From the sequence record PQ826432.1: a stretch of DNA of 61,452 nt. The stretch is one strand, 5' to 3'. The position numbers and the translations under genes were made by a program. Positions within the stretch are counted from its first letter, which is position 1; each line of letters opens with the position of its first letter. Shown here piece after piece: positions 3,775 to 56,051 of the stretch. Below the pieces are notes generated by a model. The model had not been told where the DNA came from and searched no databases. It worked only from the letters and a program-made list of their open reading frames with translations. The stretch is from a phage.

Positions 3775-3775
3775 T

Positions 3776-3797: not shown

Positions 3798-3806
3798 ATT
3801 ATTTAA

Positions 3807-31389: not shown

Positions 31390-31454
31390 TGCAAAAATAG
31401 TTGCAAAGTAAAGCGTTACTGTGTATTGTGTGGACGGTTGTAACGGAGGGTATT

Positions 31455-31658: not shown

Positions 31659-31870
31659 TGGTACTTTATGAATTTGGTCAAACTAAGCTTCGGGAACAGG
31701 GTTGGTTTATTGGGCATTACATGCATTACCGCACAGCTTATATTATGGTTGCAGGCGCTATCGTTTACCTTGGACATTATGAGAGCTATCTGGATGCTGA
31801 GAAAGCCATTAACAAGACTAAGGAATGTTTATTAGCTGCGGTTGGTCGTGCAATGGTTGGTTCTCTGTAA
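31655..31870 (+). CDS. hypothetical protein (71 aa)
   Basis: ORF track; start overlaps upstream stop. Confidence 0.45.
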   Translation: MMVLYEFGQTKLREQGWFIGHYMHYRTAYIMVAGAIVYLGHYESYLDAEKAINKTKECLLAAVGRAMVGSL

Positions 31871-31881
31871 AAGGATAAGTC

Positions 31882-42890: not shown

Positions 42891-42892
42891 TT

Positions 42893-43399
42893 ATGAAAAG
42901 GTTGCCGTTACCGACGCAAGAAGAACTCAATAGGATTTTTAGCTATAGCGAAGATAGCGGTAACTTATTCTGGAACCATAACGGCCAGATCGCAGGGAGT
43001 GAAGTTACTTTTAGTCATGGTAAAACCTATATTATGGTTTTTATGAACGGTCTTAATTATTACGCACACCGTATAATCTGGAAAATGCTCTATAACGAAG
43101 AACCCGAATATATTGATCATGATGATGGTGACGGTACGCATAATTGGAAAACTAATCTAAATAAAAGTGATAAATACCATAACAACCATAATAGAAAACT
43201 ACCATCGAATAATAAGAGCGGTTGTCCTGGAGTAACATGGGCTAAGGCAAACAAGAAATGGAAAGCTCAAATTGATGTATACGGTATTCGGCTACATCTT
43301 GGTTATTTTGAAAGTCTACAAGACGCAATAAAGACAAGAAAAGAGGCTGAAATTACATACGGGTTTAACAAGAATCATGGAACAGTGAGACCTTTATGA
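42893..43399 (+). CDS. HNH homing endonuclease with AP2-like DNA-binding domain
   Basis: AHRIIW...IDHDDGDGTHNWKTNL and GVTWAKANKKWKAQI. Confidence 0.65.
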   Translation: MKRLPLPTQEELNRIFSYSEDSGNLFWNHNGQIAGSEVTFSHGKTYIMVFMNGLNYYAHRIIWKMLYNEEPEYIDHDDGDGTHNWKTNLNKSDKYHNNHNRKLPSNNKSGCPGVTWAKANKKWKAQIDVYGIRLHLGYFESLQDAIKTRKEAEITYGFNKNHGTVRPL

Positions 43400-45372
43400 A
43401 ATTAAGAGATTATCAACAGGAAGCAGTTTATAGCGTATTCCGCTATTTTGATGCTGAAAAGGGTAACGCGGGGAACCCTTTGATCCTGTTACCAACAGGG
43501 ACAGGAAAATCGCTCGTTATCGCGGGGTTCCTCGATCTGCTTTATAAATGGTATCCAAACCAGCGCGTAATGATGTTAACTCACGTCAAAGAGTTGATCG
43601 CGCAAAACTATGATAAATTAATGAAAGTCTGGCCTGAAGCGCCAGCAGGTATTTACAGCGCAGGTTTGAAGCGTAAAGAAGTTTATAATCTTATCACATT
43701 TGCGGGGATTGCATCCGTTGCTAAGCATCCTAAAAAGTTCGGCAAGGTTGATCTAATCTTTGTAGACGAAGCGCACCTTATTAGTCCGCGTGATGCAACA
43801 ATGTATAAGAAGTTCTTTGCAGCATTGCGTGAAGTTAACCCGTATTTAAAAATTATCGGTCTTACCGCTACACCTTACCGACTGGGTTACGGCTCAATTG
43901 TTAAGGAAAACGAAGACGATGATGCTTTATTCGATAAAGTAACGTTTGATGCAACTACCCCTGAAGCCTTTAACTGGTTCCTGGAGCAAGGTTATCTTCT
44001 TCCGGTTGTGCCAAAGCGTACTAAGATGGAGCTGGACCTCAACGGGGTAGGTAAACGCGGCGGTGAGTTTATCCAGAGTGAGCTGCAAAGCGCGGTGAAC
44101 CGCGACGATGCAACACTCCGCGCGCTTGAGGAAGCCATTGAATGTGGTGAAGACCGCCAAAGCTGGCTTATATTTTGTTCTGGTATTGAACACGCTAAAG
44201 ATGCGTGTGATATGCTGAACGATATGGGTATTAGTTGCGGATGTATCCATTCAAAACTTGATGCAAAAGAGCGTGACGAAATTATTGAAAAGTTCAAGCG
44301 TGGAGAGTTTCGAGCGTTAACGAACAACAACGTCTTAACCACAGGTTTTGACCATCCGATGCTCGATCTAATTATCATGCTTCGCCCCACTGCGTCGGCG
44401 GTGCTATGGGTTCAGATGCTTGGTCGTGGTACGCGTCCGGTATACGCGGAAGGCTTTGATCTTTCCACGCAGGAAGGCCGCTTGCAAGCTATTGCAGCAA
44501 GCCCTAAGCAAAACTGCCTTGTACTGGATTTCAGCGGTAATACGCGCCGTTTGGGCCCTATTAACGACCCTGTTAAACCCAAGCGCCCGGGCGAAAAAGG
44601 TGCTGGTACTGCTCCGGTTAAAGAATGCGATGTGTGCGGGTCGTATAATCATGCATCTGCTCGCTATTGCGGTGGCTTTGCACCAATTCCTATGGACAGC
44701 GTTACACAGGAACAAGCTCAACAATTATATTTGAAGGGATTCAGACTACGTGGAACGGATTATGTTAAAGAAGGATTTTGCGGTCATGAGTTTAAGTTCC
44801 AGACGAAACTTAAAAAGGCAGCAAGTACCGAAGCACTCATCAAACAGGACATTCCGGTAGTTGAAGACTTTAAAGTTACGCATGTCACTTATGCAAAGCA
44901 CACTAAACGCAATGACAGCTCCAAACCTCCAACAATGAAGGTGACTTATTATTGCGGTAGTAAAATATTCAGCGAATGGGTAGCTTTGCTTCATGGCGAC
45001 TGGGCTGGTCGTAAAGCTGTTGCATGGTGGAAGAAAAGGACGCATCTTCCTTTACCACAAACTATTGAAGAAGCTCTTGATGTTGCTGCAATGCTTAAAA
45101 CACCGAAATACATCAAAGTTCATACCAATAAGAAATGGCCTGAGATATTGAACTACGATTATGATGGTACGTGTTTCGGTAAGTTTGAAGCTCCACAGGA
45201 CGATGAATCTATTCAAGTTAAAGTATACGGGCAAGATGGAACAACCGAAGGTCCGAGCTATAACGATGATGTGAGCTGGGATGATATTGTTTCGCAGAAT
45301 ACGCAAGGTATAACAGTGAACAATGTGGTTAATCCTGTACAAGTAGATGATCCAGATTACGTTCCGTTCTAA
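43396..45372 (+). CDS. SF2 DNA helicase (DEAH-type)
   Basis: Walker A PTGTGKS and Walker B FVDEAH. Confidence 0.7.
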   Translation: MKLRDYQQEAVYSVFRYFDAEKGNAGNPLILLPTGTGKSLVIAGFLDLLYKWYPNQRVMMLTHVKELIAQNYDKLMKVWPEAPAGIYSAGLKRKEVYNLITFAGIASVAKHPKKFGKVDLIFVDEAHLISPRDATMYKKFFAALREVNPYLKIIGLTATPYRLGYGSIVKENEDDDALFDKVTFDATTPEAFNWFLEQGYLLPVVPKRTKMELDLNGVGKRGGEFIQSELQSAVNRDDATLRALEEAIECGEDRQSWLIFCSGIEHAKDACDMLNDMGISCGCIHSKLDAKERDEIIEKFKRGEFRALTNNNVLTTGFDHPMLDLIIMLRPTASAVLWVQMLGRGTRPVYAEGFDLSTQEGRLQAIAASPKQNCLVLDFSGNTRRLGPINDPVKPKRPGEKGAGTAPVKECDVCGSYNHASARYCGGFAPIPMDSVTQEQAQQLYLKGFRLRGTDYVKEGFCGHEFKFQTKLKKAASTEALIKQDIPVVEDFKVTHVTYAKHTKRNDSSKPPTMKVTYYCGSKIFSEWVALLHGDWAGRKAVAWWKKRTHLPLPQTIEEALDVAAMLKTPKYIKVHTNKKWPEILNYDYDGTCFGKFEAPQDDESIQVKVYGQDGTTEGPSYNDDVSWDDIVSQNTQGITVNNVVNPVQVDDPDYVPF

Positions 45373-45431
45373 TTGACTTCAACATCTAATGCCCCTACTA
45401 TTGGGGCATTACTTATTTATAGGGGATTGCA

Positions 45432-45926
45432 ATGTACGTCCTGATTGATACAGATAAATTTGAACTCTTGGCAAAGCATCCCAATTGGCTGACACTACAC
45501 CAACTTGGAATTATTTGTTGCCCTGAGTCAACACTGGTGACACCAGTAGACGATTTACATGATCTTGAAGATGTTGATCTTCAAATGCTTTATATTAACT
45601 TGACAGAAAACTTAGGAGCTGCACCTTATGAACGGGAAATCGTTGAGCGCATTTTGTTTGATTACTTTACGCAACTTCCAGAAAAAATCCTGGATCACGC
45701 CCAAATCAGCGCACAAGCCGAATTCTGTGTGGAATACGATATCCAAGGCTTTTGCTCACCTCAAATTGGGCAATACGTTCCGTCAATGGATGAAGGACTT
45801 TGGAAACCTGCCCGTGTCAAATACGATGCTGAACGGGAGGGTGGTATTATTTCCGGTGCCAGGGTCGTTTGTGAGCAACCCGCATTGCAAGCCGCATGGA
45901 CACCGGGCAGAGGGGCAAAGAGTTAG
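45432..45926 (+). CDS. hypothetical protein (164 aa)
   Basis: ORF track; AGGGGA SD. Confidence 0.45.
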   Translation: MYVLIDTDKFELLAKHPNWLTLHQLGIICCPESTLVTPVDDLHDLEDVDLQMLYINLTENLGAAPYEREIVERILFDYFTQLPEKILDHAQISAQAEFCVEYDIQGFCSPQIGQYVPSMDEGLWKPARVKYDAEREGGIISGARVVCEQPALQAAWTPGRGAKS

Positions 45927-46053
45927 TAAGTTCTAAGCTTGATCAAAAATATTTTTAAAAATATTCAGATAAGGGGTTGCGTGTCACAAAATCCTTTGGT
46001 ACATTTAACCCCGTTGGTAACAAACGAACCCATAACAATTCGGAGTGAAGAGA

Positions 46054-46857
46054 ATGAGCAACATTGAAGACAAAAAAGCTGCTGCCGCAGCCGCTGCTGC
46101 CGCCGCTGCAAAATCTGCTAAACCTGCAAAGAAAGAAGCTACTGTGAATGATACAGAAGCTAAGAAAGCCGCAGCCGCTGAAGCTGCACGCGTAGCAAAA
46201 GAGAAAAAAGAAGCAGAGAAAAAAGCTGCCGCTGAAAAGAAACAAGCTGAAATCCGCACTGAAGCGGAAAACAAATTCAATGCGATTGCTAACGCTGCTG
46301 AAATCCTGAAAAACTCTTTGGCTACCGTCACCGACGAAAGCACTGTTGAACAGATCACGGAAGCAGAAACTCAGGGATCTGCAAACCTGAAGACCATTAA
46401 AGAAGCTCTGAAAGAGCTGAAAGCTGTCGTTAAGAAGTCTAAAGGTGAAGACCTGTCCGGTGCTGTAACTTCTGCCCAGGGTCTGGTGGATGGTCTGGAA
46501 GCTACTATTAAAGGCTTCAAAGACAAGATCCGTGCTGCAAAACAGGCAGAAAAAGAAGCGGAAAAAGCACGCGCTAAAGAGCTCCGCGAGAAAGAAAAAG
46601 AAGCTAATCGTATGCCTGAACAGAACGGTGTTCGCCGTCCGCAACCGGAAACTTCCTGCGGTCGTGCCTGGGCTCTGATGGACCAGATTAGCGCTACGCT
46701 GGGTCAGCCTGCTCCAATCTCTTATGTTCTGAACCTGGCTGGTCGACATGGTCTGAACGAAGATACCGTTAAAACCCAGTATGCACGCTGGAAGAAATTT
46801 AATGGTGTGACTGGTCGCGTACCTGTACCAGTACCGGAAGCCCTGAACGGCTTGTAA
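46054..46857 (+). CDS. Lys/Ala/Glu-rich coiled-coil protein with poly-Ala tract, histone H1-like composition
   Basis: ORF track 46045..46857; ATG 46054 with GGAG SD; 11-Ala run and AKK/EKK repeats. Confidence 0.4.
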   Translation: MSNIEDKKAAAAAAAAAAAKSAKPAKKEATVNDTEAKKAAAAEAARVAKEKKEAEKKAAAEKKQAEIRTEAENKFNAIANAAEILKNSLATVTDESTVEQITEAETQGSANLKTIKEALKELKAVVKKSKGEDLSGAVTSAQGLVDGLEATIKGFKDKIRAAKQAEKEAEKARAKELREKEKEANRMPEQNGVRRPQPETSCGRAWALMDQISATLGQPAPISYVLNLAGRHGLNEDTVKTQYARWKKFNGVTGRVPVPVPEALNGL

Positions 46858-46883
46858 TATCAAAACATATCACGTTATAATGA

Positions 46884-46910
46884 AGGCGCCCAATGAGGCG
46901 CTTTCTTTTT
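46884..46910 (+). terminator. weak stem-loop plus U-run
   Basis: GCGCC/GGCGC stem then TTTCTTTTT. Confidence 0.35.
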
Positions 46911-46926
46911 CACTAGAGGAGTTAAG

Positions 46927-47634
46927 ATGAATATTAATCAACAAGCTCCCGAGTCTCGTTCTAAAGAAAACGATATGTATTTAGACGTGCATTCGGTATT
47001 CTCTACCATTCAGGGTGAAGGGCCATTCTGCGGCCAACCTGCTGTATTTGTGCGACTTGCTGGGTGTAACCTGCAATGTCCGGGCTGTGATACTGACTAT
47101 ACTGTAGGTCGTTCTCTTTATCACATTGTTGATATCGTGCGTTTAATCGAAAGCCGTAAGCTGGAATCAGGCAATAGCACCTCACTTGTGGTTATTACTG
47201 GGGGTGAACCGTTCCGTCAGCAAATTAACCCGTTTATTGAACAACTGTTATCGCGGGGCTATTTGGTGCAAATCGAAACTAATGGGTCTATGCCTTTACC
47301 TAAGAACTTTTCCCAGTTGCCTGTGATTGTATGTAGTCCCAAGACCTCAAAGATTCATCCTTCTGTGCTGTACCGCGCTAATGCATTTAAATATGTACTT
47401 AAAGCGTGCTGTGTAAATGTGGAAGACGGTTTACCGCTTCAGGCATTGGATCATCAAGCTACGCCATTTATCGCTAGACCTCCGAAGGGTTTCAAGGGTA
47501 AGATATATTTACAGCCAATGGACGAGCAGGATGAAGACCTTAACCACAGTAATATCCAAGCGGTTGTCCAAAGCTGTATGAAACACGGGTACACGTTGCA
47601 GCTTCAGGTCCACAAATATATCGGGGTGGAATAA
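46927..47634 (+). CDS. queE: 7-carboxy-7-deazaguanine synthase (radical SAM)
   Basis: CNLQCPGC cluster, ITGGEP motif; strong SD GAGGAG. Confidence 0.75.
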   Translation: MNINQQAPESRSKENDMYLDVHSVFSTIQGEGPFCGQPAVFVRLAGCNLQCPGCDTDYTVGRSLYHIVDIVRLIESRKLESGNSTSLVVITGGEPFRQQINPFIEQLLSRGYLVQIETNGSMPLPKNFSQLPVIVCSPKTSKIHPSVLYRANAFKYVLKACCVNVEDGLPLQALDHQATPFIARPPKGFKGKIYLQPMDEQDEDLNHSNIQAVVQSCMKHGYTLQLQVHKYIGVE

Positions 47635-47933
47635 TGCGTGTATTAAGTCAGGTTGTGCATACTAAAGAAGTTGAATACTTTGGTAATAAGCTTGATGTCC
47701 CTGAATGGGTACGGTGGCTGGCTACGGATCAAGACGGTACAGTTTACGGATTCGAGTATGAGCCAACGTTGATGGACATTGAAACTAAATGGACATCATA
47801 CTGGGAAGATGATAACTTTTGTGAAATGGCAGAAGTTGACCTCGAAGGTATGGATTATAGACAAACATTAGTGAAGGTGAAAAGAAATGATCACTTTGGA
47901 AGAAGCGAAACAGCATCAGGAAATGATTACTGA
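47634..47933 (+). CDS. hypothetical protein (99 aa)
   Basis: ORF track. Confidence 0.4.
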   Translation: MRVLSQVVHTKEVEYFGNKLDVPEWVRWLATDQDGTVYGFEYEPTLMDIETKWTSYWEDDNFCEMAEVDLEGMDYRQTLVKVKRNDHFGRSETASGNDY

Positions 47934-48099
47934 GCTGGTAGAAAAACTTAATTCTTCAATTGCTCACGCTACTATGCAAGGTGTGCATGTAGAATTAGAT
48001 ATTAATCACGTTAGCACAATTGGAGCTCGCAATCATCCAATTGTAATGTCTAACGTAACAATCAACCCTTGTAATATTAAAGGTGAAGTAAATGAATGA
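47887..48099 (+). CDS. hypothetical protein (70 aa)
   Basis: ORF track; overlaps upstream ORF end. Confidence 0.3.
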   Translation: MITLEEAKQHQEMITELVEKLNSSIAHATMQGVHVELDINHVSTIGARNHPIVMSNVTINPCNIKGEVNE

Positions 48100-48280
48100 A
48101 GAAACTGTAATCCTTATGCAGAAAATTCAACGTTTACAAGACGAGTTGAATGACGCTATTTGTCGTGCTGCATCCAAGAAAATACATTCGGAGCTTGAGA
48201 TACACCAGCGTCAGGTAACCTCTGAAGCTGTAGTTGAACAAGTAGTCATTAACCTTAATATTAGCCTTAAAGGTTTCTAA
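48092..48280 (+). CDS. hypothetical protein (62 aa)
   Basis: ORF track. Confidence 0.3.
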   Translation: MNEETVILMQKIQRLQDELNDAICRAASKKIHSELEIHQRQVTSEAVVEQVVINLNISLKGF

Positions 48281-48281
48281 A

Positions 48282-48989
48282 ATGAATAAATTAGATAAAC
48301 TGGTATTCCCTGTAAAAAATCATAACTCCGCCGTTGTGGTCCTGTCTGGCGGCCAGGACAGCGTGACCTGTTTAGGTCTTGCACTTAATAACTATGATAA
48401 GGTTTACGCTATTGGTTTTGCATACGGTCAACGTCACACTGTGGAATTGGCTTGCGCTGAACAGATATGTAAAGAGCACGATGTCCCATTTGTTGTCTTT
48501 GAATTACCTGCTTTGAAACAGATTGGTAATAGTGCTTTAATCGGGAACGAAGGTGATGTTAACGAACATCACGAACAGCACAACAACCTTCCGGCAAGCT
48601 TTGTGCCAAACCGTAATGCGCTTTTCCTGACTACCGCGCACGCCTACGCGCAGAAAGTTGGCGCCAGATATGTGGTTACAGGCGTTTGTGAAACAGACTA
48701 TAGCGGTTATCCGGATTGCCGCCAGCAGTTTGTAGACCTGCTTGAAGCTACATTAAACGTTGGATATGAAACAGATATTCATTTCGTTACCCCGCTTATG
48801 CGTTTAAATAAAGCAGAAACGTTTGAGCTGGCGGATAAGGTTGGTTTCTTAACCACAGTGATTGAGCAGTCCCATACTTGCTATAATGGCGTCCGTCGTA
48901 CTCTGCATGACTGGGGATATGGTTGCGGTGAATGTCCTGCGTGCAAACTGCGTGCTAAAGGGTACAGCGAATTTATTAGCAAAGCTTGA
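48282..48989 (+). CDS. queC: 7-cyano-7-deazaguanine synthase
   Basis: PP-loop SGGQDS; C-terminal Cys4; no amidotransferase domain. Confidence 0.8.
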   Translation: MNKLDKLVFPVKNHNSAVVVLSGGQDSVTCLGLALNNYDKVYAIGFAYGQRHTVELACAEQICKEHDVPFVVFELPALKQIGNSALIGNEGDVNEHHEQHNNLPASFVPNRNALFLTTAHAYAQKVGARYVVTGVCETDYSGYPDCRQQFVDLLEATLNVGYETDIHFVTPLMRLNKAETFELADKVGFLTTVIEQSHTCYNGVRRTLHDWGYGCGECPACKLRAKGYSEFISKA

Positions 48990-49109
48990 TCTTACAGCGA
49001 AAACCGCACCGCTAGCGCATTGTTTAGGGTGCGGGAACCCAACTATACTACTAAAGCTTTTAAACCCAACAACCAGCGAATAACGCTGTTAAAACTGGAG
49101 AACAAAAGT

Positions 49110-49589
49110 ATGAAATTTATCGTCGCTTATCTGGCTGCAATTACATTCGTAAACCTGGGCTTTTCCTACCTTCCAATGCTTAATACGCCGCTTGGCGTGG
49201 TCCCGATGATGGCTTTCTTTGTAGGTATTATCTTTGTGTTGCGTGACTACGCACAGCGTAACGCTGGCAAAGGCGTTATCCCTGCAATGATTGTGGGTTG
49301 CATTCTTAGCTGGGTATTTGGAGATCCTGCTGTTGTAGTTGCATCCGTTGCATCCTTTGCTCTTAGCGAGTTTGCGGACTATGCGGTATACACGATTACT
49401 AAGAAGCCATTTCATCAACGTGTATTTATTAGCTCTTTGGTAGCTGTACCAATTGACTCCATTGTGTTCTTAAGTATTATAGGTATTGTTAATCCGGGAT
49501 CAATGGTAGCAATGAGCTTAAGTAAGTTCACAGCATCTGCCATCCTTTGGGTTGTTTATGAAGTTCATTCACGTACAGCGAGAGCGTAA
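49110..49589 (+). CDS. membrane protein, possible YhhQ-like queuosine-precursor transporter
   Basis: ORF track 49020..49589; ATG 49110 with GGAG SD; multi-TM with SEFADYAVYT; location inside que cluster. Confidence 0.4.
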   Translation: MKFIVAYLAAITFVNLGFSYLPMLNTPLGVVPMMAFFVGIIFVLRDYAQRNAGKGVIPAMIVGCILSWVFGDPAVVVASVASFALSEFADYAVYTITKKPFHQRVFISSLVAVPIDSIVFLSIIGIVNPGSMVAMSLSKFTASAILWVVYEVHSRTARA

Positions 49590-49591
49590 AA

Positions 49592-50182
49592 ATGAAAGAT
49601 AATCTTAATAAAATTTGGCACCAGCACGATGGGAAAGGAATGCCAATCTTTCTTCGCAATGAAAAGTTTGAAGTTCGTTTGCGCAACGGCACACACGTTA
49701 AGAATCTATTACATGGATGGGACTGGGCTATAGAAGGGCGTTCGGCTATGGATGAGAATAGCCCTTATAAAATTCAAGATATTATAGCCTGGCGATATAT
49801 CGTTGCGGATGATTACGTCAAACAAGCCCAGGAAAATACTCGCTCCGGAGTGTATCATCACCCTTCTAGTGAAATAAGCATAAGTAATACATTTAATGGT
49901 GCAGTTTTTACGAAATATGAACCATCTAAAATTCCCATGAATAAATATCAGAGAATTATTTATGGTAAAGATCAAAACGGTAATGTTGTAAAATGCATCG
50001 TGGACGTGTATGATGTCTTGGAAGCTTGGAAAACAACTAACCCAGCTTTACAACATTTGATTAAAAAGGCGTTGCAGCCTGGCGAACGCGGTCATAAAAG
50101 TCTGGTAGAAGACTTGAAAGATATTATTGCATCCGCACAGCGTGCGTTAGAAATTGAACAGTCTAAAGAGGTATTAAAATGA
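49592..50182 (+). CDS. hypothetical protein (196 aa)
   Basis: ORF track. Confidence 0.45.
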   Translation: MKDNLNKIWHQHDGKGMPIFLRNEKFEVRLRNGTHVKNLLHGWDWAIEGRSAMDENSPYKIQDIIAWRYIVADDYVKQAQENTRSGVYHHPSSEISISNTFNGAVFTKYEPSKIPMNKYQRIIYGKDQNGNVVKCIVDVYDVLEAWKTTNPALQHLIKKALQPGERGHKSLVEDLKDIIASAQRALEIEQSKEVLK

Positions 50183-50703
50183 GCTATACAGTAATTCGTT
50201 CACATGAAATTTGCGCAGGACATCGTGTTGTAGGCCACGAAAGCAAATGTCGCCACCTGCACGGTCACAACTATAAGTTTCACTTTAAGGTTGCACCGAA
50301 ACATGGATGCGGAAAAGTAGTGACACGAGGAAAGCTGGTTGAGGACGGACTGGACAACGTTGGGCGCGTGATAGACTTTAGTGTGGTTAAAACTACGCTG
50401 TGTCAGTGGTTGGAAGATAATTGGGATCATAAGTTCCTGCATTGGGAACATGACAGCGTAATTAATTCACTTATTGTTGTTGCATCAACTGAGTTCGCAC
50501 GTGAAAATAATCTAGTAAAGGATGAAGATTATGATCCTTTCGTTGATTCACTGGTAGCTCTACCATTCAACCCAACTGCGGAAAACTTAGCTGCATATAT
50601 GGTTGACGTGATTGGTCCTCAATTACTTGACCAGTATGGTGTTGAACTTGTAGAATGCACCATTGAAGAAACGTCCAAATGCCATGTTAACTATTGCAAA
50701 TGA
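50179..50703 (+). CDS. queD: 6-carboxy-5,6,7,8-tetrahydropterin synthase
   Basis: CRHLHGHNY motif (Cys-x3-HGH). Confidence 0.75.
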   Translation: MSYTVIRSHEICAGHRVVGHESKCRHLHGHNYKFHFKVAPKHGCGKVVTRGKLVEDGLDNVGRVIDFSVVKTTLCQWLEDNWDHKFLHWEHDSVINSLIVVASTEFARENNLVKDEDYDPFVDSLVALPFNPTAENLAAYMVDVIGPQLLDQYGVELVECTIEETSKCHVNYCK

Positions 50704-50729
50704 TTGACCACACAAGGAAACTGCAAACC

Positions 50730-51338
50730 ATGTCTAAATATAGTATTAATAGTGAAGGTGTTCAATTCCGTATTGCTAACGCTGTGCGTACTTTACTATC
50801 CCAAATTGAAGTTAGCGCGGTTCTGCGCCCAGGGCTGGAGGAGACTCCAGATCGTGTAGCTAAAGCTTATGCTACATGGTTTAGCGGTTACGATGTAGAT
50901 ATTGCTGGTCTGTTTAAAACCTTTGAGGATGGGGCGGAAAACACCAATGAAATGGTCATAGTCCGTGATATTCCTGTATACAGTCATTGTGAGCATCACA
51001 TGGCCCCTATCATCGGTCATGCTGTTGTGGGTTATGTCCCCAATGGGAAGATCGTTGGGCTCAGTAAGCTGTCTCGCGTTGTGGATGCTTTTAGTCGTCG
51101 CTTGCAAGTTCAGGAACGTCTTACTAATCAGATTGCAGACGCTATTGAAGAGCATTTAAATCCGAAAGCTGTATGCGTTTATATTGACGCCAAACATATG
51201 TGCATGGAGTCGCGCGGTGTTAAGCAGGTATGCGGCAGCTCTACTATTACCAAAGCGTTCCGGGGCGCTACAGAACTGTGGCATGGTAGCGATATTGGCA
51301 AAGAATGGCGCCGGGAGTTTCTCGAAGCTTGTAAATAA
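50730..51338 (+). CDS. folE: GTP cyclohydrolase I
   Basis: ETPDRVAKAY, SHCEHH, GLSKLSR, QVQERLT motifs; start moved to ATG 50730. Confidence 0.85.
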   Translation: MSKYSINSEGVQFRIANAVRTLLSQIEVSAVLRPGLEETPDRVAKAYATWFSGYDVDIAGLFKTFEDGAENTNEMVIVRDIPVYSHCEHHMAPIIGHAVVGYVPNGKIVGLSKLSRVVDAFSRRLQVQERLTNQIADAIEEHLNPKAVCVYIDAKHMCMESRGVKQVCGSSTITKAFRGATELWHGSDIGKEWRREFLEACK

Positions 51339-51408
51339 TAGATAGCTTTACAGATCAAGCCCATATTGGTCATAATACTGATATGGGCTTTTTAGTTGGT
51401 ATAAGACA

Positions 51409-51966
51409 ATGGAAATTATCACAAGAGCTGAAGCAAAAGAAAGAGGTTTGAAATATTATTTTACTGGTAAGCCTTGTGCGAAAGGTCATGTTTCTGAAAG
51501 AAAGACTGTAGATGGATATTGTATTACTTGTGACAGAGAAGCACGAAAGAAAAGAATGCGTATTTACAATAAAACAGAAGCTGCAAGGAATGCTGTTAAG
51601 AGATACCATAAGTCACAGAAAGGAAAAGAAGCCCTCCAACGTTCAAAAGCTGCTTATGATTCTACTGAGAAAGGTAAAGAACAAAATAAAGAAAGGCTGA
51701 AACGCTGGGCTAAGACAGATTACGGTAAAGCTAGATCAAGGTTACATTCCCTTGAAGTGCATAAGAAAAGGTCTTTAAGAATCCCTGCGTGGTCTGAAAA
51801 AGAACAAATTGAATTGTTCTACGCTAACTGCCCGGATGGGATGGAGGTTGATCATATTATACCTCTTTGCGGTAAAAGAGTCAGTGGACTTCACGTCCTT
51901 AGTAACCTACAATACTTATCTATTGAAGAAAACAGATCTAAGCGTAATAAATTTGAGGTGGAATAA
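51409..51966 (+). CDS. HNH endonuclease inserted between folE and dpdA-like gene
   Basis: Cys-rich N-terminus; DHIIPL...GLHVLSNLQYL...N HNH motif. Confidence 0.6.
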   Translation: MEIITRAEAKERGLKYYFTGKPCAKGHVSERKTVDGYCITCDREARKKRMRIYNKTEAARNAVKRYHKSQKGKEALQRSKAAYDSTEKGKEQNKERLKRWAKTDYGKARSRLHSLEVHKKRSLRIPAWSEKEQIELFYANCPDGMEVDHIIPLCGKRVSGLHVLSNLQYLSIEENRSKRNKFEVE

Positions 51967-52886
51967 TGCATCTGTTTGTCGCTGCGGTATATACCAACGG
52001 CTATAAAGCTGGTCAACAACGATATGAAAAGTTAAACGATCGGGAAAAAGACATTGTTAATAGCCTTCCAAATATTTTGGAATCATACCACTACGTTGGG
52101 CGTCAGAAGTATGTTGATCAGATGCGTGCGGATGGGGCTAAAGTGTTTCTCGACTCCGGTGCATTCTCTGCGCACTCTTTGGGTGCTCACATTGATATTG
52201 TTGAATACTGCGAATACATTAAGCGCAACAAAGACATCCTTCGCGTAGAAGATGGTGCAGTAATGGCGTCGGTGCTCGATGGTATCGGTGATCCGTTGCA
52301 GACCTACCGTAACCAGCTTGAAATGGAAGCACGCGGTGCTAAACCGTTACCTTGCTTTCACTTTGGGGAGGACTTCCGCTATCTCGAATATTACATGAAG
52401 AACTACGAATATATCACCATCGGGGGTATGGTAGGGCGTTCTACGGACACGCTAAAGACTTGGCTTGACCGCATGTGGGACAAATACATTTGCGATGGTA
52501 GCGGTCGCCCTAAGATTAAGCTTCATGCGTTTGGTATTACGTCAACAACCATTATGGAGCGTTATCCGTGGTATAGCTGTGACTCATCCTCCTGGATTCA
52601 AGCAGCAGCGTTTGGAAGTGTGGTTACTCCTCCGTGGGGACCAATGCGCGTATCAGATAAGTCACCGGACCGCCATCATTTTGGTAAGCATGTTTCAACA
52701 TTAACTGAAATTGAACAAGACGCTGTCCTTAAATACCTTGAGCAAAACGGTTTCACTTACGAACGTTTATCAACAATCTATGAATCACGTGCTGCCTTCA
52801 ACTTATGGGCGTATGGTGTAATTGCTGCAAATATCAACGCTACCCATGACGGCACATTCCGTGATCGTGTAATGGAGTTGTTCTGA
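51966..52886 (+). CDS. dpdA: DpdA-like 7-deazaguanine DNA transglycosylase (TGT-like)
   Basis: FLDSGAFS and HAFGI resemble TGT motifs; size and location in deazaguanine cluster. Confidence 0.55.
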   Translation: MHLFVAAVYTNGYKAGQQRYEKLNDREKDIVNSLPNILESYHYVGRQKYVDQMRADGAKVFLDSGAFSAHSLGAHIDIVEYCEYIKRNKDILRVEDGAVMASVLDGIGDPLQTYRNQLEMEARGAKPLPCFHFGEDFRYLEYYMKNYEYITIGGMVGRSTDTLKTWLDRMWDKYICDGSGRPKIKLHAFGITSTTIMERYPWYSCDSSSWIQAAAFGSVVTPPWGPMRVSDKSPDRHHFGKHVSTLTEIEQDAVLKYLEQNGFTYERLSTIYESRAAFNLWAYGVIAANINATHDGTFRDRVMELF

Positions 52887-53113
52887 TGGCTAACTTAAGA
52901 AGACCAAAAAGTAAACGTAAATATACTCACACAGGCGTAAGAATTAATTATTACGGTGAAAACAGAGTAGTATTTCTCCACAAGACACCTAAGCAGTGGC
53001 AGGATCCGTCAGGCACATGGTTTAATGCACAAGGAAAACAAATGGGACTTTATGGATACCCTCCAACCTGTGAATTAGATTTAACCACAATTAGAGCAAT
53101 CGAGGATCGCTAA
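52886..53113 (+). CDS. hypothetical protein (75 aa)
   Basis: ORF track. Confidence 0.4.
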   Translation: MANLRRPKSKRKYTHTGVRINYYGENRVVFLHKTPKQWQDPSGTWFNAQGKQMGLYGYPPTCELDLTTIRAIEDR

Positions 53114-54066
53114 TGTTAGACGCTCTTAAATTTGTTCAAGGTTCCGTCGCTAAAAAGGAACTGGTAGAAGGGCTTACCAGCTTTCTTATTCGTGACGGAC
53201 AGGTTCAAGGCTTTAATGGTGTTATTGCACTGGGTAGCCCTATTGAGCTGGATATTGATTGCAAGCCCGAAGCTGGGCCTATGATTAAAGCTATTTCGAA
53301 CTGCGATGAAACAGTGCAGCTAACAATGATGGCTAACGGTAAGCTGAATATCAAGTCAGGGCCGTTTCGTGTTGCTATACGCTGCATTGATAAAGAAACA
53401 CCACACGTATTTCCTGAAGGTGATTTGTACGAAATAGACGGTGCTCGCTTCGTGCATGGCGTGAAGTCAGTTGCTCCATTTGTGGGGTCGGATGCTTCCC
53501 GTCCGTGGGCTTGCGGCATTCTGATCAATAACGGTAGTTTGTTTGCTACAAATAACGTCACTATTGCGGAATACTGGTTTGGCAATCAGTTCCCTATTGA
53601 CTGCATAATACCGTCTGTTGCTATCAAAGAAATACTTCGCATTAAAGCTAACCCGACACATATTCAGGTCAGTAAAAATAACGTAACGTTCCATTATCCG
53701 GAAGGTCGCTGGTTGCGGACACAGCTTATTGATGCAGAGTGGCCCGATATACGTCGTATTTTAAATGTTCCATGCAATGCACATCCTGTTGATCCAGGTC
53801 TTTTTGAAGGCTTGCATAAAATTAAACCGTTCGCAGAAGACCGACCGCGTGTATATATTGAAAACGGTCTGGCCCGTACTCATTACGACGATGCAGAAGG
53901 TGCAAGCTTCGTATTACAAGACCGAACAATAACGGGAGTGTACAATATTGATATCCTGCTATTGCTTGAAAATGTGGTTAAGACTGCGGACTTTAGTTTG
54001 TATCCGCAACCTTGCGCATTCTTTGGGGAAAATCTTCGCGGTGTATTAATTGGAGAACGTGTCTAA
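53113..54066 (+). CDS. DnaN-like sliding clamp
   Basis: DAEWPDIRRILN resembles E. coli DnaN DGRFPDYRRVLP; ATN(N)...A segment resembles VATDGHRLA; precedes DNA polymerase. Confidence 0.45.
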   Translation: MLDALKFVQGSVAKKELVEGLTSFLIRDGQVQGFNGVIALGSPIELDIDCKPEAGPMIKAISNCDETVQLTMMANGKLNIKSGPFRVAIRCIDKETPHVFPEGDLYEIDGARFVHGVKSVAPFVGSDASRPWACGILINNGSLFATNNVTIAEYWFGNQFPIDCIIPSVAIKEILRIKANPTHIQVSKNNVTFHYPEGRWLRTQLIDAEWPDIRRILNVPCNAHPVDPGLFEGLHKIKPFAEDRPRVYIENGLARTHYDDAEGASFVLQDRTITGVYNIDILLLLENVVKTADFSLYPQPCAFFGENLRGVLIGERV

Positions 54067-56051
54067 TGCGGACAGATGCTATTGGTTTCTTTTGGCAGGA
54101 CTTACCGCCTGAGCCAAAAGCAAAGAAAGAAAAGGTTAAACGTTTACCGCCGGAGCGCACTTGGGAGCGCCCGGAATATTTGCCCAATCTTGAGGAAGCG
54201 CGGAACTTCCAATACAACCTGTACACACAGGACGAACTTATTCAAGCATGGATTAACCGCGAACCGCTTGTATACGATATTGAATGTTATCCAAACTATT
54301 TCTTGATTGCATTTCGCGGAGTACGAACTAAGAAAGTTGTTTACTTTGAAATGTATCACGGTTGTAGTTTGAATTGCTTGTTACTTAACTGGGTAATGAC
54401 AAACTTCCTTATCGTAAGCTTTAACGGTAACGGGTACGATATGCCCATTGCTACGCTTGCTCTTAACGGCTGCTCTAATGCTCAGCTTAAAGATGCAACC
54501 GATAAGATAATCGTGGAAGACTGGCGTCCTTCCGATGTGTTGAAGAGTTACCGCCTTAAGCGTATGCAGAACGTTAACCACATTGATATTATGGAAGTTC
54601 TGCCTGGATCTGGTGGTTTGAAACAATATGGCGGACGTGTACATACTCGCCATATGCAGGATTTACCGTTCAAGCCAAATACAATGTTGACGCAGGACCA
54701 GATGTTAATTGTACGCTGGTACTGTATTAACGACCTTGTACAGACGGAAGAATGTTTTATTGCATTACAGGAACCTTTACATCTTCGTGAAATTATGTCG
54801 CAAGAATACGGTGTGGATCTGCGTTCACGTTCTGATGCGCAGATTGCAGAAGACGTGATTAAACACGAAATTCAAGCGTTAACGGGCGTGCGTCCGCAGC
54901 GTCCACAAGTTTATCCTGGAACTAAATATGCATATAACATACCGGACTTTATTCGTTTTCAAACACCTCTGATGAATAGTGTTTTGGATATTGTTCGGGA
55001 CTGCCGCTTTGTTGTTAGCGATAACGGTGGCGTTAGCTTGCCTCCAGCGTTAACAGGTCTTGAGATTAAGATTGCAGACGGTGTTTACCGTATGGGTATT
55101 GGCGGTTTGCACAGCTCTGAAGAATGTGCTGGTCACGGTAAAGAGCCAGGTATTAAGAAGCGGGACATTGACGTAACGTCCTATTACCCTTCAATTATTC
55201 TTAATCAGGGCTTATACCCCGAACAGTTGGGACCAGCTTTCCTTCGTGTTTATAAAAGCATTGTAGACCGTCGTATTGCGGCTAAGCACTCAGGGGACAA
55301 GAACACAGCCAACACGCTGAAGATCGTTATCAACGGATCGTTCGGTAAGTTGGGGTCCATGTGGTCTGTACTGTACGCGCCCCAATTATTGATACAAGTT
55401 ACATTAACCGGACAGCTTTCACTGTTGATGCTTATTGAGGCATTTGAGTTGAATGGTGTTAAAGTAATTTCGGCTAACACGGACGGCATTGTGGTTAAGT
55501 ATCCAGACCACATGCAGGACTTCGTTGATAATATGATCAAGTGGTGGGAATCCGTAACAGGTTTTGAAATGGAATCCAACTACTATGACAAGCTGTACAG
55601 TGCTAACGTCAATAACTATGTTGCAGTAAAAGAACCTGACGAGGAAGGAAATGTTGAAATCAAGCGTAAAGGCTGGTTCGCAAAGACAGGTCTTCAAAAG
55701 AACTGTACTGGTGAAATTATTATGGAAGCTGTATGTGAATGTTTGGCCCACGGTACGCCTGTTTCTCGTACTATACGCAATTGCAACGATATTAGAAAAT
55801 TCATTATCCTACGTGCGGTAAAAGGCGGCGCGGTGTGGAATGGCGAATTTTTGGGTAAGGTTGTACGCTGGTACTTAAGCACTAATGAAGAAACACCTGA
55901 AATAATCTATGCTAACTCGGGCAACCGTGTAGCTGGTAGCGCGGGAGGTGTCCCGATTATGACGCTACCGGATAAAATACCGGACGACATAGATTATGAT
56001 GCTTATATAGCTAAAGCAGAGAAGTATCTCGAAGACATGGGATACGCCTAA
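54066..56051 (+). CDS. DNA polymerase (family B-like motifs, with 3'-5' exonuclease DxE)
   Basis: YDIE exo motif; DVTSYYPSII, KIVINGSFGK, NTDG; start at ATG 54066 overlapping upstream stop. Confidence 0.65.
   Translation: MRTDAIGFFWQDLPPEPKAKKEKVKRLPPERTWERPEYLPNLEEARNFQYNLYTQDELIQAWINREPLVYDIECYPNYFLIAFRGVRTKKVVYFEMYHGCSLNCLLLNWVMTNFLIVSFNGNGYDMPIATLALNGCSNAQLKDATDKIIVEDWRPSDVLKSYRLKRMQNVNHIDIMEVLPGSGGLKQYGGRVHTRHMQDLPFKPNTMLTQDQMLIVRWYCINDLVQTEECFIALQEPLHLREIMSQEYGVDLRSRSDAQIAEDVIKHEIQALTGVRPQRPQVYPGTKYAYNIPDFIRFQTPLMNSVLDIVRDCRFVVSDNGGVSLPPALTGLEIKIADGVYRMGIGGLHSSEECAGHGKEPGIKKRDIDVTSYYPSIILNQGLYPEQLGPAFLRVYKSIVDRRIAAKHSGDKNTANTLKIVINGSFGKLGSMWSVLYAPQLLIQVTLTGQLSLLMLIEAFELNGVKVISANTDGIVVKYPDHMQDFVDNMIKWWESVTGFEMESNYYDKLYSANVNNYVAVKEPDEEGNVEIKRKGWFAKTGLQKNCTGEIIMEAVCECLAHGTPVSRTIRNCNDIRKFIILRAVKGGAVWNGEFLGKVVRWYLSTNEETPEIIYANSGNRVAGSAGGVPIMTLPDKIPDDIDYDAYIAKAEKYLEDMGYA

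What the first reader, a model, noticed from the sequence alone, without database searches (positions are those of the whole stretch)
46927..52886. 7-deazaguanine DNA-modification gene set; predicted base is preQ0 or the amido intermediate
Seen: QueE (CNLQCPGC), QueC (SGGQDS plus Cys4, no fused amidotransferase), QueD (Cys-x3-HGH), FolE (SHCEHH, QVQERLT), a TGT-like protein (FLDSGAFS, HAFGI) and a YhhQ-like membrane protein, all co-oriented. Established: FolE-QueD-QueE-QueC make preQ0 from GTP, and DpdA-type TGT homologues insert 7-deazaguanines into DNA. Inference: no QueF and no Gat domain, so the genome probably carries dPreQ0 or dADG rather than dPreQ1 or dG+. The three small ORFs between QueE and QueC, and the 196-aa ORF before QueD, are unassigned and could be additional pathway or targeting factors.
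Basis: partly seen in the sequence, partly recalled or inferred. Interest (0 to 1): 0.65.

Follow-up and report, generated by a model that had tools for sequence, protein, structure and literature searches.

The report
Known phage dPreQ0 DNA-modification gene cluster

Summary

The window is a complete, circularly permuted Seuratvirus (Queuovirinae) genome. It is about 90-94% identical in nucleotides to CAjan, Seurat and the BASEL Seuratviruses.

The cluster matches CAjan gene for gene. Protein identities are QueE 99%, QueC 96%, YhhQ-like 99% and DpdA 95%, with all nine modelled active-site residues kept.

CAjan DNA was shown by LC-MS/MS to carry dPreQ0 only, on about 23-32% of G at GA and GGC motifs. 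That modification depends on dpdA, folE and queC but not on yhhQ. The predicted base here is therefore dPreQ0, not dADG.

No Gat, ArcS, QueF or DpdC-like gene was found in the window.

The unassigned ORFs do not look like pathway factors:
- orf99 is absent from CAjan and belongs to a widespread small-protein family.
- orf70 and orf62 are almost confined to the genus.
- The conserved C-terminal module of the 196-aa ORF occurs in about 700 phage records, most without DpdA.
- The CAjan homologue of that ORF appears to have been truncated in the published yhhQ deletion, with no effect on modification.

Verdict: correct, ordinary, already known.

The parts
46852..46905 (+). Promoter-like site (46852-46881) and terminator-like hairpin with a T-run (46882-46905), just upstream of queE
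   Evidence: Consensus scan only; function not shown.
46927..47634 (+). QueE, the radical-SAM 7-carboxy-7-deazaguanine synthase
   Evidence: CNLQCPGC cluster motif. phrog_2076 1.8e-68. 99.1% aa identity to CAjan gp45 and 64% to 9g QueE, which complements E. coli delta-queE. NCBIfam QueE models match only below their cutoffs (best 96.7 bits against 200).
47634..47933 (+). orf99, a variable accessory small ORF inserted between queE and orf70
   Evidence: The 249-nt stretch 47637-47885 has no counterpart in CAjan. 91% aa identity to ECP2304, 45% to WildeMaa. The family occurs in 228 phage records, including Klebsiella phages of about 48 kb, coliphages of about 150 kb (phAPEC8) and a 355-kb Erwinia phage. 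A second copy lies in the window at 26170-26379 on the - strand.
47887..48099 (+). orf70, a small conserved ORF of unknown function (CAjan gp44 homologue)
   Evidence: 94% identity to CAjan gp44 and 44% to Hafnia phage yong3 at the same position. About 35% identity to an early gene of the Nonanavirus phage PJ16, in a locus with no annotated deazaguanine gene. The 'radical SAM' label in some records has no HMM support.
48092..48280 (+). orf62, a small ORF of unknown function (CAjan gp43 homologue)
   Evidence: Found in only 29 phage records, all of them among the close relatives that carry this cluster. Weak paralogy to orf70, E 9e-5.
48282..48989 (+). QueC, the preQ0 (7-cyano-7-deazaguanine) synthase, with no Gat domain
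   Evidence: Pfam QueC 7.6e-75; TIGR00364 243 bits against a cutoff of 150. 96% identity to CAjan gp42. Aligns only to residues 241-457 of the 471-aa 9g Gat-QueC, and the Gat half has no match anywhere in the window.
49110..49589 (+). YhhQ/Vut_1-like membrane protein (159 aa), a putative preQ0 transporter
   Evidence: Vut_1 E 1.7e-5 and TIGR00697 E 1.8e-4, both below their curated cutoffs. About five hydrophobic segments. Not significant in pairwise BLAST against E. coli YhhQ. 98.8% identity to CAjan gp41. Homologues lie within about 6 kb of que genes in the Vibrio, Rhizobium and Enterobacter phages examined.
49592..50182 (+). orf196, of unknown function: a variable N-terminal domain plus a conserved C-terminal module of about 65-80 aa
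   Evidence: Full-length homologues are restricted to Seuratvirus-like genomes. The C-terminal module occurs in 718 phage records. The module is also present in the clusters of CAjan (gp40), yong3, 9g (gp07) and EC151. No Pfam or PDB match.
50179..50703 (+). QueD, 6-carboxytetrahydropterin synthase
   Evidence: Pfam PTPS 76.3 bits against a cutoff of 22.4; CRHLHGH motif. 86% identity to 9g QueD, which complements E. coli delta-queD. Only 72-81% identity to Seuratvirus alleles.
50694..51338 (+). FolE, GTP cyclohydrolase I (start codon uncertain: TTG at 50694, or ATG at 50700 or 50730)
   Evidence: Pfam 3.5e-63; TIGR00063 193 bits against a cutoff of 181.6. 83% identity to CAjan and 77% to 9g.
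51357..51390 (+). Terminator-like 14-bp hairpin with a T-run after folE; homology with CAjan and WildeMaa ends at about 51396
51409..51966 (+). HNH-type endonuclease (185 aa) in a variable slot between folE and dpdA; not part of the pathway
   Evidence: phrog_1035 1.3e-16. The sequence shows a DH..P..(10)..H..N..(8)..N motif. 100% identical in ECP2304 at the same place, whereas CAjan and WildeMaa carry unrelated small ORFs there. Its stop overlaps the dpdA start (TAATG).
51966..52886 (+). DpdA (phage DpdA1 subfamily), the DNA guanine/preQ0 transglycosylase
   Evidence: 95.4% identity to CAjan gp35, 99.7% to ECP2304 and 68% to 9g DpdA. D63, S64, F67, D105, H132, G153, G154, F189 and D206 are all kept. 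phrog_887 1.2e-94. In Foldseek, 24 of the 25 best PDB hits, including the first 24, are tRNA-guanine transglycosylases, but the E-values are weak and the model is of low confidence.
52886..53113 (+). orf75, a small ORF translationally coupled to dpdA (TGATG overlap), of unknown function
   Evidence: 98.7% identity to CAjan gp34, 31% to the ORF after dpdA in yong3, and absent from 9g and EC151.

Best explanation
The cluster is the Seuratvirus-type 7-deazaguanine DNA-modification system.

Proposed pathway (enzyme roles from established knowledge of the families, summarised in PMC10516641):
- FolE converts GTP to dihydroneopterin triphosphate.
- QueD makes 6-carboxytetrahydropterin (CPH4).
- QueE, a radical-SAM enzyme, makes 7-carboxy-7-deazaguanine (CDG).
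- QueC makes preQ0.
- After replication, DpdA flips out selected guanines in double-stranded phage DNA and exchanges the base for preQ0. It uses a TGT-like double-Asp mechanism, with D206 as nucleophile and D63 as general base.

By analogy with CAjan, the targets are G in GA and GGC contexts. In this genome that is 7,843 sites, or 28.7% of all G. The result is dPreQ0, which blocks many type I and type II restriction enzymes.

The YhhQ-like membrane protein probably imports exogenous preQ0 as a supplement and is dispensable when the de novo pathway works.

Shown here: gene identities, synteny, conserved catalytic residues, absence of further tailoring enzymes, and near-identity to the experimentally characterised CAjan system.

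Inferred: that this particular phage's DNA carries dPreQ0, and at the same motifs.
For: - Family assignments.
- The window is a Seuratvirus with 90-94% nt identity to CAjan over 51.7 of 61.5 kb.
- Protein identities to CAjan are QueE 99%, QueC 96%, YhhQ-like 99% and DpdA 95%.
- The DpdA differs from CAjan's only at 13 positions within residues 2-36, plus A182P. All modelled active-site residues are identical.
- CAjan virion DNA has dPreQ0 at 70,628 per 10^6 nt (about 32% of G), with dADG, dG+, dPreQ1 and dQ all below 6 per 10^6. The dpdA deletion abolishes the modification and restores restriction sensitivity (PMC6884629).
- In CAjan the motifs are GA and GGC. Deleting folE or queC removes the high-level modification, with a 12-fold drop measured for delta-queC. 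Deleting yhhQ has no effect (PMC7544227).
- 9g FolE, QueD and QueE complement E. coli mutants. The window's proteins are 77%, 86% and 64% identical to them.
- GA plus GGC sites make up 28.7% of G here, against 28.1% in CAjan.
- BASEL Seuratviruses resist type I and type II restriction-modification systems in vivo (PMC8594841).
- There is no Gat domain. None of the ORFs of 70 aa or more that are not tail-fibre genes, in window regions lacking a CAjan counterpart, matches any Pfam family, and PHROGs name none of them except one HNH endonuclease.
Against: - No chemistry was done on this phage, so the base identity rests on homology.
- QueE, QueD and the YhhQ-like protein score below the NCBIfam equivalog cutoffs. 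DpdA has no Pfam TGT hit.
- The DpdA structure model is poor (pLDDT 60.6). The TGT matches are therefore weak: Foldseek E at least 7e-3 and TM about 0.35. Profile searches against PDB, and hhalign against E. coli Tgt, are not significant.
- QueD and FolE are the most divergent genes relative to CAjan (76% and 83%).
- The N-terminal 36 residues of DpdA are a different allele, so a small change in motif preference cannot be excluded.
Confidence: 0.9

Rival explanations
1. The DNA carries dADG (7-amido-7-deazaguanine) rather than dPreQ0, either because this QueC stops at the amide intermediate or because an unassigned ORF hydrates the nitrile.
For: Several ORFs in the cluster have no assigned function.
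Against: CAjan has the same gene set and a 96%-identical QueC, and its DNA has dADG below 6 per 10^6 nt against dPreQ0 at about 70,600. The QueC here passes the preQ0-synthase equivalog cutoff, 243 bits against 150. No DpdC-like or nitrile-hydratase-like ORF was found.
Confidence: 0.03
2. One of the unassigned ORFs (orf70, orf62, orf196 or orf75) tailors the base further, or sets DpdA's sequence specificity, so the final modification or its motif differs from the minimal FolE-QueD-QueE-QueC-DpdA model.
For: orf70, orf62, orf196 and orf75 are conserved in CAjan (87-99%, or 56% for orf196) and sit inside the operon, with translational coupling. A protein with the orf196 C-terminal module is present in the deazaguanine clusters of four Queuovirinae lineages.
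Against: - CAjan carries all four and has only dPreQ0.
- In 9g, dpdA plus gat-queC alone modify plasmid DNA in E. coli.
- orf62 is found only among this cluster's close relatives. orf70 has homologues in a Nonanavirus locus with no annotated deazaguanine gene.
- The orf196 module is in 718 phage records (368 from Salmonella phages), whereas DpdA1 is in 236 (3 from Salmonella phages).
- The published CAjan delta-yhhQ deletion is 550 bp at position 31,850. That is longer than yhhQ itself and lies inside gp40, the orf196 homologue. It left the modification level unchanged. This is my inference from Table 1 of PMC7544227 together with the annotation.
Confidence: 0.05
3. The genes mainly boost queuosine precursor supply for host or phage tRNA modification, and DNA is not the target.
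For: The pathway product preQ0 is also the tRNA-Q precursor.
Against: 9g dpdA does not complement E. coli delta-tgt. CAjan DNA is heavily modified in a dpdA-dependent way. QueF, QueA and QueG are absent from the phage.
Confidence: 0.02

Closest known systems
Escherichia phage CAjan (Seuratvirus cajan) dPreQ0 system, gp35-gp45
   Same: Same genus and the same gene order: queE - small ORFs - queC - yhhQ-like - gp40 family - queD - folE - slot - dpdA - gp34, followed by the clamp and DNA polymerase genes. Protein identities are 76-99%. The DpdA active-site residues are identical. The density of GA plus GGC sites is the same, 28.7% against 28.1% of G.
   Different: - The window has an extra orf99 after queE.
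- It lacks CAjan gp39.
- It carries an HNH endonuclease in place of gp36, with a different allele of the first 36 DpdA codons.
- Its QueD allele is Nonagvirus-like.
- Its orf196 is only 56% identical to gp40.
Enterobacteria phage 9g (Nonagvirus) dG+ system
   Same: Same synteny of queE, queC, queD, folE, dpdA, clamp and polymerase. DpdA is 68% identical, QueD 86%, FolE 77% and QueE 64%. A protein with the orf196 C-terminal module (gp07) is also present.
   Different: 9g has the 471-aa Gat-QueC fusion that yields dG+. The window has a plain 235-aa QueC, 29% identical to the QueC half only, with no Gat domain anywhere. 9g lacks the YhhQ-like gene and the orf70, orf62 and orf75 homologues.
Bacterial Dpd system (DpdA/DpdB/DpdC, Salmonella Montevideo type; PDB 7ui4 DNA-guanine transglycosylase)
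   Same: It also inserts preQ0 into DNA through a TGT-family transglycosylase. There is weak local similarity around the H-F-G / catalytic-Asp region (NF041059 E 0.002; 7ui4 E 0.54).
   Different: No DpdB ATPase or DpdC (which would convert dPreQ0 to dADG) was found. The phage enzyme belongs to the DpdA1 subfamily and modifies up to about 30% of G, against less than 0.1% for bDpdA (PMC10516641).
Pseudomonas phage iggy dPreQ0 system (Queuovirinae)
   Same: [quoted passage not shown]
   Different: The iggy DpdA targets GA only, modifying about 16.5% of G, and iggy has no yhhQ-like gene. The window's DpdA is far closer to CAjan's, at 95%, than to the Pseudomonas Queuovirinae DpdAs listed (about 70%).

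Membership tests
Phage 7-deazaguanine (dPreQ0) DNA-modification system, Seuratvirus/CAjan type | GTP cyclohydrolase I (FolE) | tested here: met
   PF01227 212.7 bits (cutoff 27); TIGR00063 193.3 bits (cutoff 181.6); SHCEHH and QVQERLT motifs.
Phage 7-deazaguanine (dPreQ0) DNA-modification system, Seuratvirus/CAjan type | QueD (CPH4 synthase) with the Cys-x3-His-Gly-His motif | tested here: met
   PF01242 76.3 bits (cutoff 22.4); CRHLHGH motif. 86% identity to the 9g QueD shown to complement delta-queD. The TIGR03367 equivalog cutoff is not reached, 61 bits against 89.
Phage 7-deazaguanine (dPreQ0) DNA-modification system, Seuratvirus/CAjan type | QueE, a radical-SAM CDG synthase | tested here: met
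   Cx3Cx2C motif. phrog_2076 1.8e-68. 99% identity to CAjan gp45, and 64% to the 9g QueE that complements delta-queE. Caveat: all NCBIfam QueE equivalog cutoffs are missed, the best being 96.7 bits against 200.
Phage 7-deazaguanine (dPreQ0) DNA-modification system, Seuratvirus/CAjan type | Stand-alone QueC (preQ0 synthase) without an amidotransferase domain | tested here: met
   TIGR00364 243 bits (cutoff 150). 235 aa. Aligns only to residues 241-457 of 9g Gat-QueC, and the Gat half has no hit in the window.
Phage 7-deazaguanine (dPreQ0) DNA-modification system, Seuratvirus/CAjan type | DpdA1-type DNA transglycosylase with two catalytic Asp residues and the preQ0 pocket | tested here: met
   95.4% identity to CAjan DpdA, which is genetically essential for dPreQ0 insertion. 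D63, D206, S64, F67, D105, H132, G153, G154 and F189 are all kept. phrog_887 1.2e-94.
Phage 7-deazaguanine (dPreQ0) DNA-modification system, Seuratvirus/CAjan type | TGT-like (beta/alpha)8 barrel fold of DpdA | tested here: inconclusive
   The AF2 model has mean pLDDT 60.6. In Foldseek, 24 of the 25 best PDB hits, including the first 24, are TGTs, but with E 7e-3 to 3e-2 and TM about 0.35. HMM and hhalign comparisons with PDB chains and E. coli Tgt are not significant. They align only the FLDSGAFS / TDSGGFQ motif and, against 7ui4, a stretch of about 70 residues, query 130-199. Published homology modelling of CAjan DpdA on arcTGT supports the fold.
Phage 7-deazaguanine (dPreQ0) DNA-modification system, Seuratvirus/CAjan type | No QueF, QueF-L, Gat, ArcS, DpdC, DpdL, DpdM or DpdN tailoring enzyme | tested here: met
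   Cluster ORFs give no such hits in Pfam, NCBIfam or PHROGs. ORFs of 70 aa or more (other than tail-fibre genes) in regions with no counterpart in CAjan give no Pfam hit. The only QueF signal is the below-cutoff match inside FolE.
Phage 7-deazaguanine (dPreQ0) DNA-modification system, Seuratvirus/CAjan type | Virion DNA actually contains dPreQ0 at GA and GGC motifs | not testable with these tools
   Needs LC-MS/MS or nanopore sequencing. Shown only for CAjan.
YhhQ / Vut_1 (DUF165) queuosine-precursor transporter | Match to the family HMM at the curated threshold | tested here: not met
   PF02592 25.6 bits (cutoff 27.2); TIGR00697 21.4 bits (cutoff 50.95). BLASTP against E. coli YhhQ gives E 1.3. 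The protein is 159 aa against 221 aa. It is best described as a remote, shortened relative.
YhhQ / Vut_1 (DUF165) queuosine-precursor transporter | Polytopic membrane protein that transports preQ0 | not testable with these tools
   About five hydrophobic segments. Co-occurs with que genes in the Vibrio, Rhizobium and Enterobacter phages examined. Transport has not been tested. The CAjan deletion has no phenotype for modification.
Nonagvirus-type dG+ (archaeosine) system | Gat-QueC fusion or another amidotransferase | tested here: not met
   No Gat domain anywhere in the window (tblastn with 9g gp06).
Bacterial Dpd restriction-modification island | DpdB ATPase partner and DpdC | tested here: not met
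   The NCBIfam scan of ten cluster ORFs gave only one weak DpdA hit (E 0.002) and no DpdB or DpdC.
DUF3310 (T7 gp1.7 nucleotide-kinase C-terminal domain), considered for orf196 | Match to PF11753 | tested here: not met
   T7 gp1.7 hits PF11753 at 4.5e-23. Neither orf196 nor any of the other 50 proteins in the alignment of its family does. hhalign of that alignment against gp1.7 gives probability 2%. There are only weak Foldseek hits to phage proteins annotated 'nucleotide kinase', the best at E 8e-3.

The most novel reading that the evidence does not exclude
The protein family that shares the orf196 C-terminal module might be an unrecognised accessory component of Queuovirinae deazaguanine clusters. 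The module's consensus is NKY..VDVYDVL.AW..NPALQHLIKKALQPGERGHK..DL.DIIASA.RA.ELE. A copy sits inside the cluster in Seuratvirus (CAjan gp40, yong3), Nonagvirus (9g gp07) and EC151. Possible roles include handling released guanine or nucleotides, or recruiting DpdA to replicating DNA. The genus-specific small proteins orf70, orf62 and orf75 could act with it.
Probability: 0.08. Interest if true: 0.45.

Novelty: already known. Interest (0 to 1): 0.12.

Why it matters
It matters little beyond annotation. The window can be labelled with confidence as a Seuratvirus whose DNA should carry dPreQ0 on roughly 25-30% of its guanines.

That has practical consequences:
- resistance to many type I and type II restriction enzymes;
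- lower-quality nanopore reads, as reported for modified CAjan DNA (Kot 2020).

The only mildly useful by-products are these:
- a map of which cluster genes are constant and which are swappable cargo;
- the observation that the published CAjan 'delta-yhhQ' mutant probably also removed the start of gp40;
- a widespread phage protein module of unknown function that would repay a structural or biochemical look.

Tried and rejected
- **preQ1 riboswitch or other RNA element in the 120-nt queC-yhhQ gap.** An Rfam E-value scan of 45000-54500 found only one sub-threshold sRNA hit, outside the gap. Rejected.
- **Direct sequence link of DpdA to solved TGT or DpdA structures.** phmmer found nothing. Profiles of 32 and 97 sequences gave no significant match. 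hhalign against E. coli Tgt gave probability about 2%. This is too remote for these tools. The AF2 model was limited by a shallow alignment, because diverse homologues could not be handed to the predictor.
- **orf196 as a DUF3310 / T7 gp1.7-like nucleotide kinase.** This was a lead from memory. It is not supported by Pfam or hhalign, and only weakly by Foldseek. There is no PDB match.
- **A tailoring enzyme hidden elsewhere in the genome.** None was found among regions with no CAjan counterpart.
- **CAjan supplementary primer table, to pin down the delta-yhhQ deletion.** It is not held in the library.
- **afdb50 fold library.** Unavailable.

Full report
**1. What is in the sequence**

The interval 46927-52886 holds a run of co-oriented (+) ORFs. 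Domain searches identify the following:
- QueE (46927-47634): radical-SAM Cx3Cx2C motif; phrog_2076 1.8e-68.
- QueC (48282-48989): PF06508 7.6e-75; TIGR00364 243 bits against a cutoff of 150.
- A short Vut_1/YhhQ-like membrane protein (49110-49589).
- QueD (50179-50703): PF01242 2.5e-21.
- FolE (50694-51338): PF01227 3.5e-63.
- A DpdA-type protein (51966-52886): phrog_887 1.2e-94.

Three small corrections apply. First, the YhhQ-like gene begins at the ATG at 49110, after a GGAG. Second, it matches its family only below the curated cutoffs.

**2. Where the window comes from**

Megablast of the cluster finds 58 phage records. The close, near-full-length matches, at 90-94% nt identity, include the named Seuratviruses Seurat, slur01, WildeMaa and ECP2304.

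Aligned with the CAjan genome, 51.7 of the window's 61.5 kb are covered at 88-94% identity in a circularly permuted arrangement. The window is therefore a whole Seuratvirus genome.

The parts without a CAjan counterpart are:
- tail-fibre regions;
- a few small ORFs;
- two HNH endonucleases;
- orf99;
- the N-terminal half of orf196.

Apart from the tail-fibre genes, none of the ORFs of 70 aa or more in these regions matches any Pfam family. PHROGs names none except an HNH endonuclease.

**3. Comparison with the experimentally characterised system**

Gene by gene, identity to CAjan is as follows:

| Window gene | CAjan gene | aa identity |
|---|---|---|
| QueE | gp45 | 99% |
| orf70 | gp44 | 94% |
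| orf62 | gp43 | 87% |
| QueC | gp42 | 96% |
| YhhQ-like | gp41 | 99% |
| orf196 | gp40 | 56% |
| QueD | gp38 | 76% |
| FolE | gp37 | 83% |
| DpdA | gp35 | 95% |
| orf75 | gp34 | 99% |

The published work on CAjan shows the following:
- Hutinet et al. 2019 (PMC6884629) measured dPreQ0 at 70,628 per 10^6 nt in CAjan DNA, about 32% of G.
- In the same study dADG, dG+, dPreQ1 and dQ were all below 6 per 10^6.
- A dpdA deletion removed the modification and restored restriction sensitivity.
- Kot et al. 2020 (PMC7544227) showed the modified sites are G in GA and GGC.
- They also showed that deleting folE or queC removes the high-level modification. Host preQ0 gives a residue 12-fold lower, measured in delta-queC.
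- A yhhQ deletion changes nothing.
- They named the modelled DpdA active-site residues: D63, S64, F67, D105, H132, G153, G154, F189 and D206.

All nine residues are identical here. The window's DpdA differs from CAjan's only at 13 positions within residues 2-36, plus A182P.

The FolE, QueD and QueE of phage 9g complement E. coli mutants. The window's proteins are 77%, 86% and 64% identical to them.

GA plus GGC sites account for 28.7% of all G in the window, or 63.8 per 10^3 nt. The figure for CAjan is 28.1%.

**4. Which base**

The QueC is a plain 235-aa enzyme. It aligns only with residues 241-457 of the 471-aa Gat-QueC of 9g. The Gat half finds nothing in the window.

No QueF, ArcS, DpdC, DpdL, DpdM or DpdN-like protein was detected. 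The below-cutoff QueF hit lies inside FolE; it is my own knowledge, not a tool result, that the two families share a fold.

Together with the CAjan chemistry, this points to dPreQ0.

**5. The TGT-like fold**

DpdA1 is too far from solved TGTs for sequence methods. phmmer and two profile searches against the PDB, and hhalign against E. coli Tgt, gave nothing significant. The only alignments obtained were:
- the FLDSGAFS / TDSGGFQ motif;
- a sub-threshold match of about 70 residues, query 130-199, to the bacterial DNA-guanine transglycosylase 7ui4;
- a sub-threshold match of residues 147-212 to NF041059, E 0.002.

The phmmer search and the first profile search found nothing at all.

The AlphaFold model built from a shallow alignment (about 70% identity) is of low confidence, with pLDDT 60.6. 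Even so, 24 of its 25 best Foldseek PDB hits, including the first 24, are tRNA-guanine transglycosylases, with probability up to 0.91 and E from 7e-3.

I rate the fold test as supportive but formally inconclusive. The 95% identity to a genetically validated DpdA carries the argument.

**6. The unassigned ORFs**

*orf99.* It is a 249-nt insertion relative to CAjan. It belongs to a small-protein family found in 228 phage records, including coliphages of about 150 kb such as phAPEC8, Klebsiella phages of about 48 kb and a 355-kb Erwinia phage. A second copy lies elsewhere in this genome. It is cargo, not part of the pathway.

*orf70.* It is conserved in Seuratvirus and in the divergent yong3. It also has about 35% homologues among the early genes of the Nonanavirus phage PJ16, in a locus with no annotated deazaguanine gene.

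*orf62.* It occurs only in 29 records, all among the close relatives that carry this cluster. It is a weak paralogue of orf70.

*orf75.* It is translationally coupled to dpdA. It is found in CAjan and, at 31% identity, in yong3, and is absent from 9g and EC151.

*orf196.* It has a variable N-terminal part and a strongly conserved C-terminal module of 65-80 aa.
- The module is found inside the deazaguanine clusters of CAjan, yong3, 9g (gp07) and EC151, which is suggestive.
- It also occurs in 718 phage records, 368 of them from Salmonella phages. DpdA1 occurs in 236 records, only 3 from Salmonella phages.
- So most carriers lack the modification system.
- It has no Pfam or PDB match.
- BFVD matches are uncharacterised phage proteins and a DNA-ligase fusion. 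Phage proteins annotated as nucleotide kinases match weakly, the best at E 8e-3.
- A link to DUF3310, which T7 gp1.7 does contain, is not supported by Pfam or hhalign.

Published genetics argue against a role for these ORFs:
- 9g dpdA plus gat-queC are sufficient to modify plasmid DNA in E. coli.
- The CAjan 'delta-yhhQ' deletion is listed as 550 bp at position 31,850. That is longer than the 480-bp yhhQ gene and lies within gp40 (31513-32082). It left the modification unchanged at 36.0% against 34.9% of G.

That the deletion also truncated the orf196 homologue is my inference from the table. The primer list was not available to confirm it.

**7. The YhhQ-like protein**

It is a shortened relative of the family, 159 aa against 221 aa for E. 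coli YhhQ, with about five hydrophobic segments. It is not significant in pairwise BLAST against E. coli YhhQ.

Homologues occur in 77 phage records. In Vibrio phage VpKK5, Rhizobium phage RHEph04 and Enterobacter phage EC151 they lie within about 6 kb of que genes.

This supports a functional tie to 7-deazaguanine metabolism, most simply salvage of external preQ0. That role is inferred and has not been shown.

**8. Architecture**

Comparison of five related clusters shows constant genes separated by variable slots.

| Kind | Content |
|---|---|
| Constant genes | queE, orf70 family, queC, yhhQ-like, module protein, queD, folE, dpdA |
| Slot after queE | orf99 present or absent |
| Slot before queD | CAjan gp39 present or absent |
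| Slot between folE and dpdA | the HNH here and in ECP2304; unrelated small ORFs in CAjan and WildeMaa |

No riboswitch was found. Promoter-like and terminator-like sites lie before queE and after folE, but these are consensus matches only.

**9. Verdict**

The finding is a correct reading of a well-known system. Novelty is 'already known' and interest is low. The remaining uncertainty is only whether this particular isolate behaves like CAjan, which LC-MS/MS or two restriction digests would settle.

Noticed in passing
window 51397-52075: The HNH endonuclease gene (51409-51966) occupies a variable slot between folE and dpdA. The adjoining first 36 codons of dpdA carry 13 substitutions relative to CAjan and WildeMaa, whereas the other 270 codons differ at one position. 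Phage ECP2304 has the identical HNH and the same dpdA allele. This looks like a homing-endonuclease co-conversion tract.
   Followed up: partly
window 42887-43399 (+): A second HNH endonuclease (170 aa; phrog_99 8e-54) lies just upstream of the helicase gene (43396-45372), in a stretch with no counterpart in CAjan.
   Followed up: partly
window 50179-50703: The QueD allele is closer to Nonagvirus phages (SE1 88%, JenK1 87%, 9g 86%) than to any Seuratvirus (72-81%). No record reaches 90%. This suggests exchange between the two genera inside the cluster.
   Followed up: partly
window 49940-50182 (orf196 residues ~117-196): A highly conserved phage protein module (consensus NKY..VDVYDVL.AW..NPALQHLIKKALQPGERGHK..DL.DIIASA.RA.ELE) occurs in 718 phage records. 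It is joined to many different N-terminal parts and, in Aeromonas phages, to a DNA ligase. It has no Pfam family and no solved structure, and it resembles T7 gp1.7-type 'nucleotide kinases' only weakly in fold.
   Followed up: partly
proteins P0245, P0249, P0263, P0270, P0309 (metagenomic DpdA1 homologues): Several DpdA1 homologues of about 600 aa match the query in two separated stretches. In P0245, which I aligned, an insertion of about 312 aa lies between Y203 and S204, just before the catalytic D206. P0249 shows a weak LAGLIDADG hit. This pattern is typical of an intein at an active site.
   Followed up: partly
window 47887-48280: orf70 and orf62 are adjacent and weakly similar to each other (E 9e-5 over 26 residues), so they may be tandem paralogues. 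The 'radical SAM domain-containing protein' label that some records give the orf70 family has no HMM support.
   Followed up: partly
window 26170-26379 (-) and 47634-47933 (+): There are two copies of the orf99 small-protein family in this genome (31% identity, E 9e-10). Related phages carry two or three copies.
   Followed up: no
CAjan NC_028776 31850-32399 (locus L003): In Kot et al. 2020, Table 1, the delta-yhhQ deletion is 550 bp at position 31,850. That is longer than yhhQ (480 bp) and starts inside gp40. The mutant probably also lacks the 5' end of gp40, the orf196 homologue.
   Followed up: partly
whole window: There are no EcoKI sites (AACN6GTGC) on either strand in 61.5 kb, where about 7.5 would be expected for a random sequence of this length. 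There are also only 2 EcoRI and 3 BamHI sites. Site avoidance may add to the protection given by the modification.
   Followed up: no
window 30661-31870 (+): A 1.5-kb stretch with no CAjan counterpart encodes a 242-aa protein (phrog_27223, unknown function) and two small ORFs. None has a Pfam match.
   Followed up: no
window 1-4000 and 60030-61452: The tail-fibre and receptor-binding region differs from CAjan (no match, or about 76% identity). This fits the known variability of these loci in small siphoviruses.
   Followed up: no
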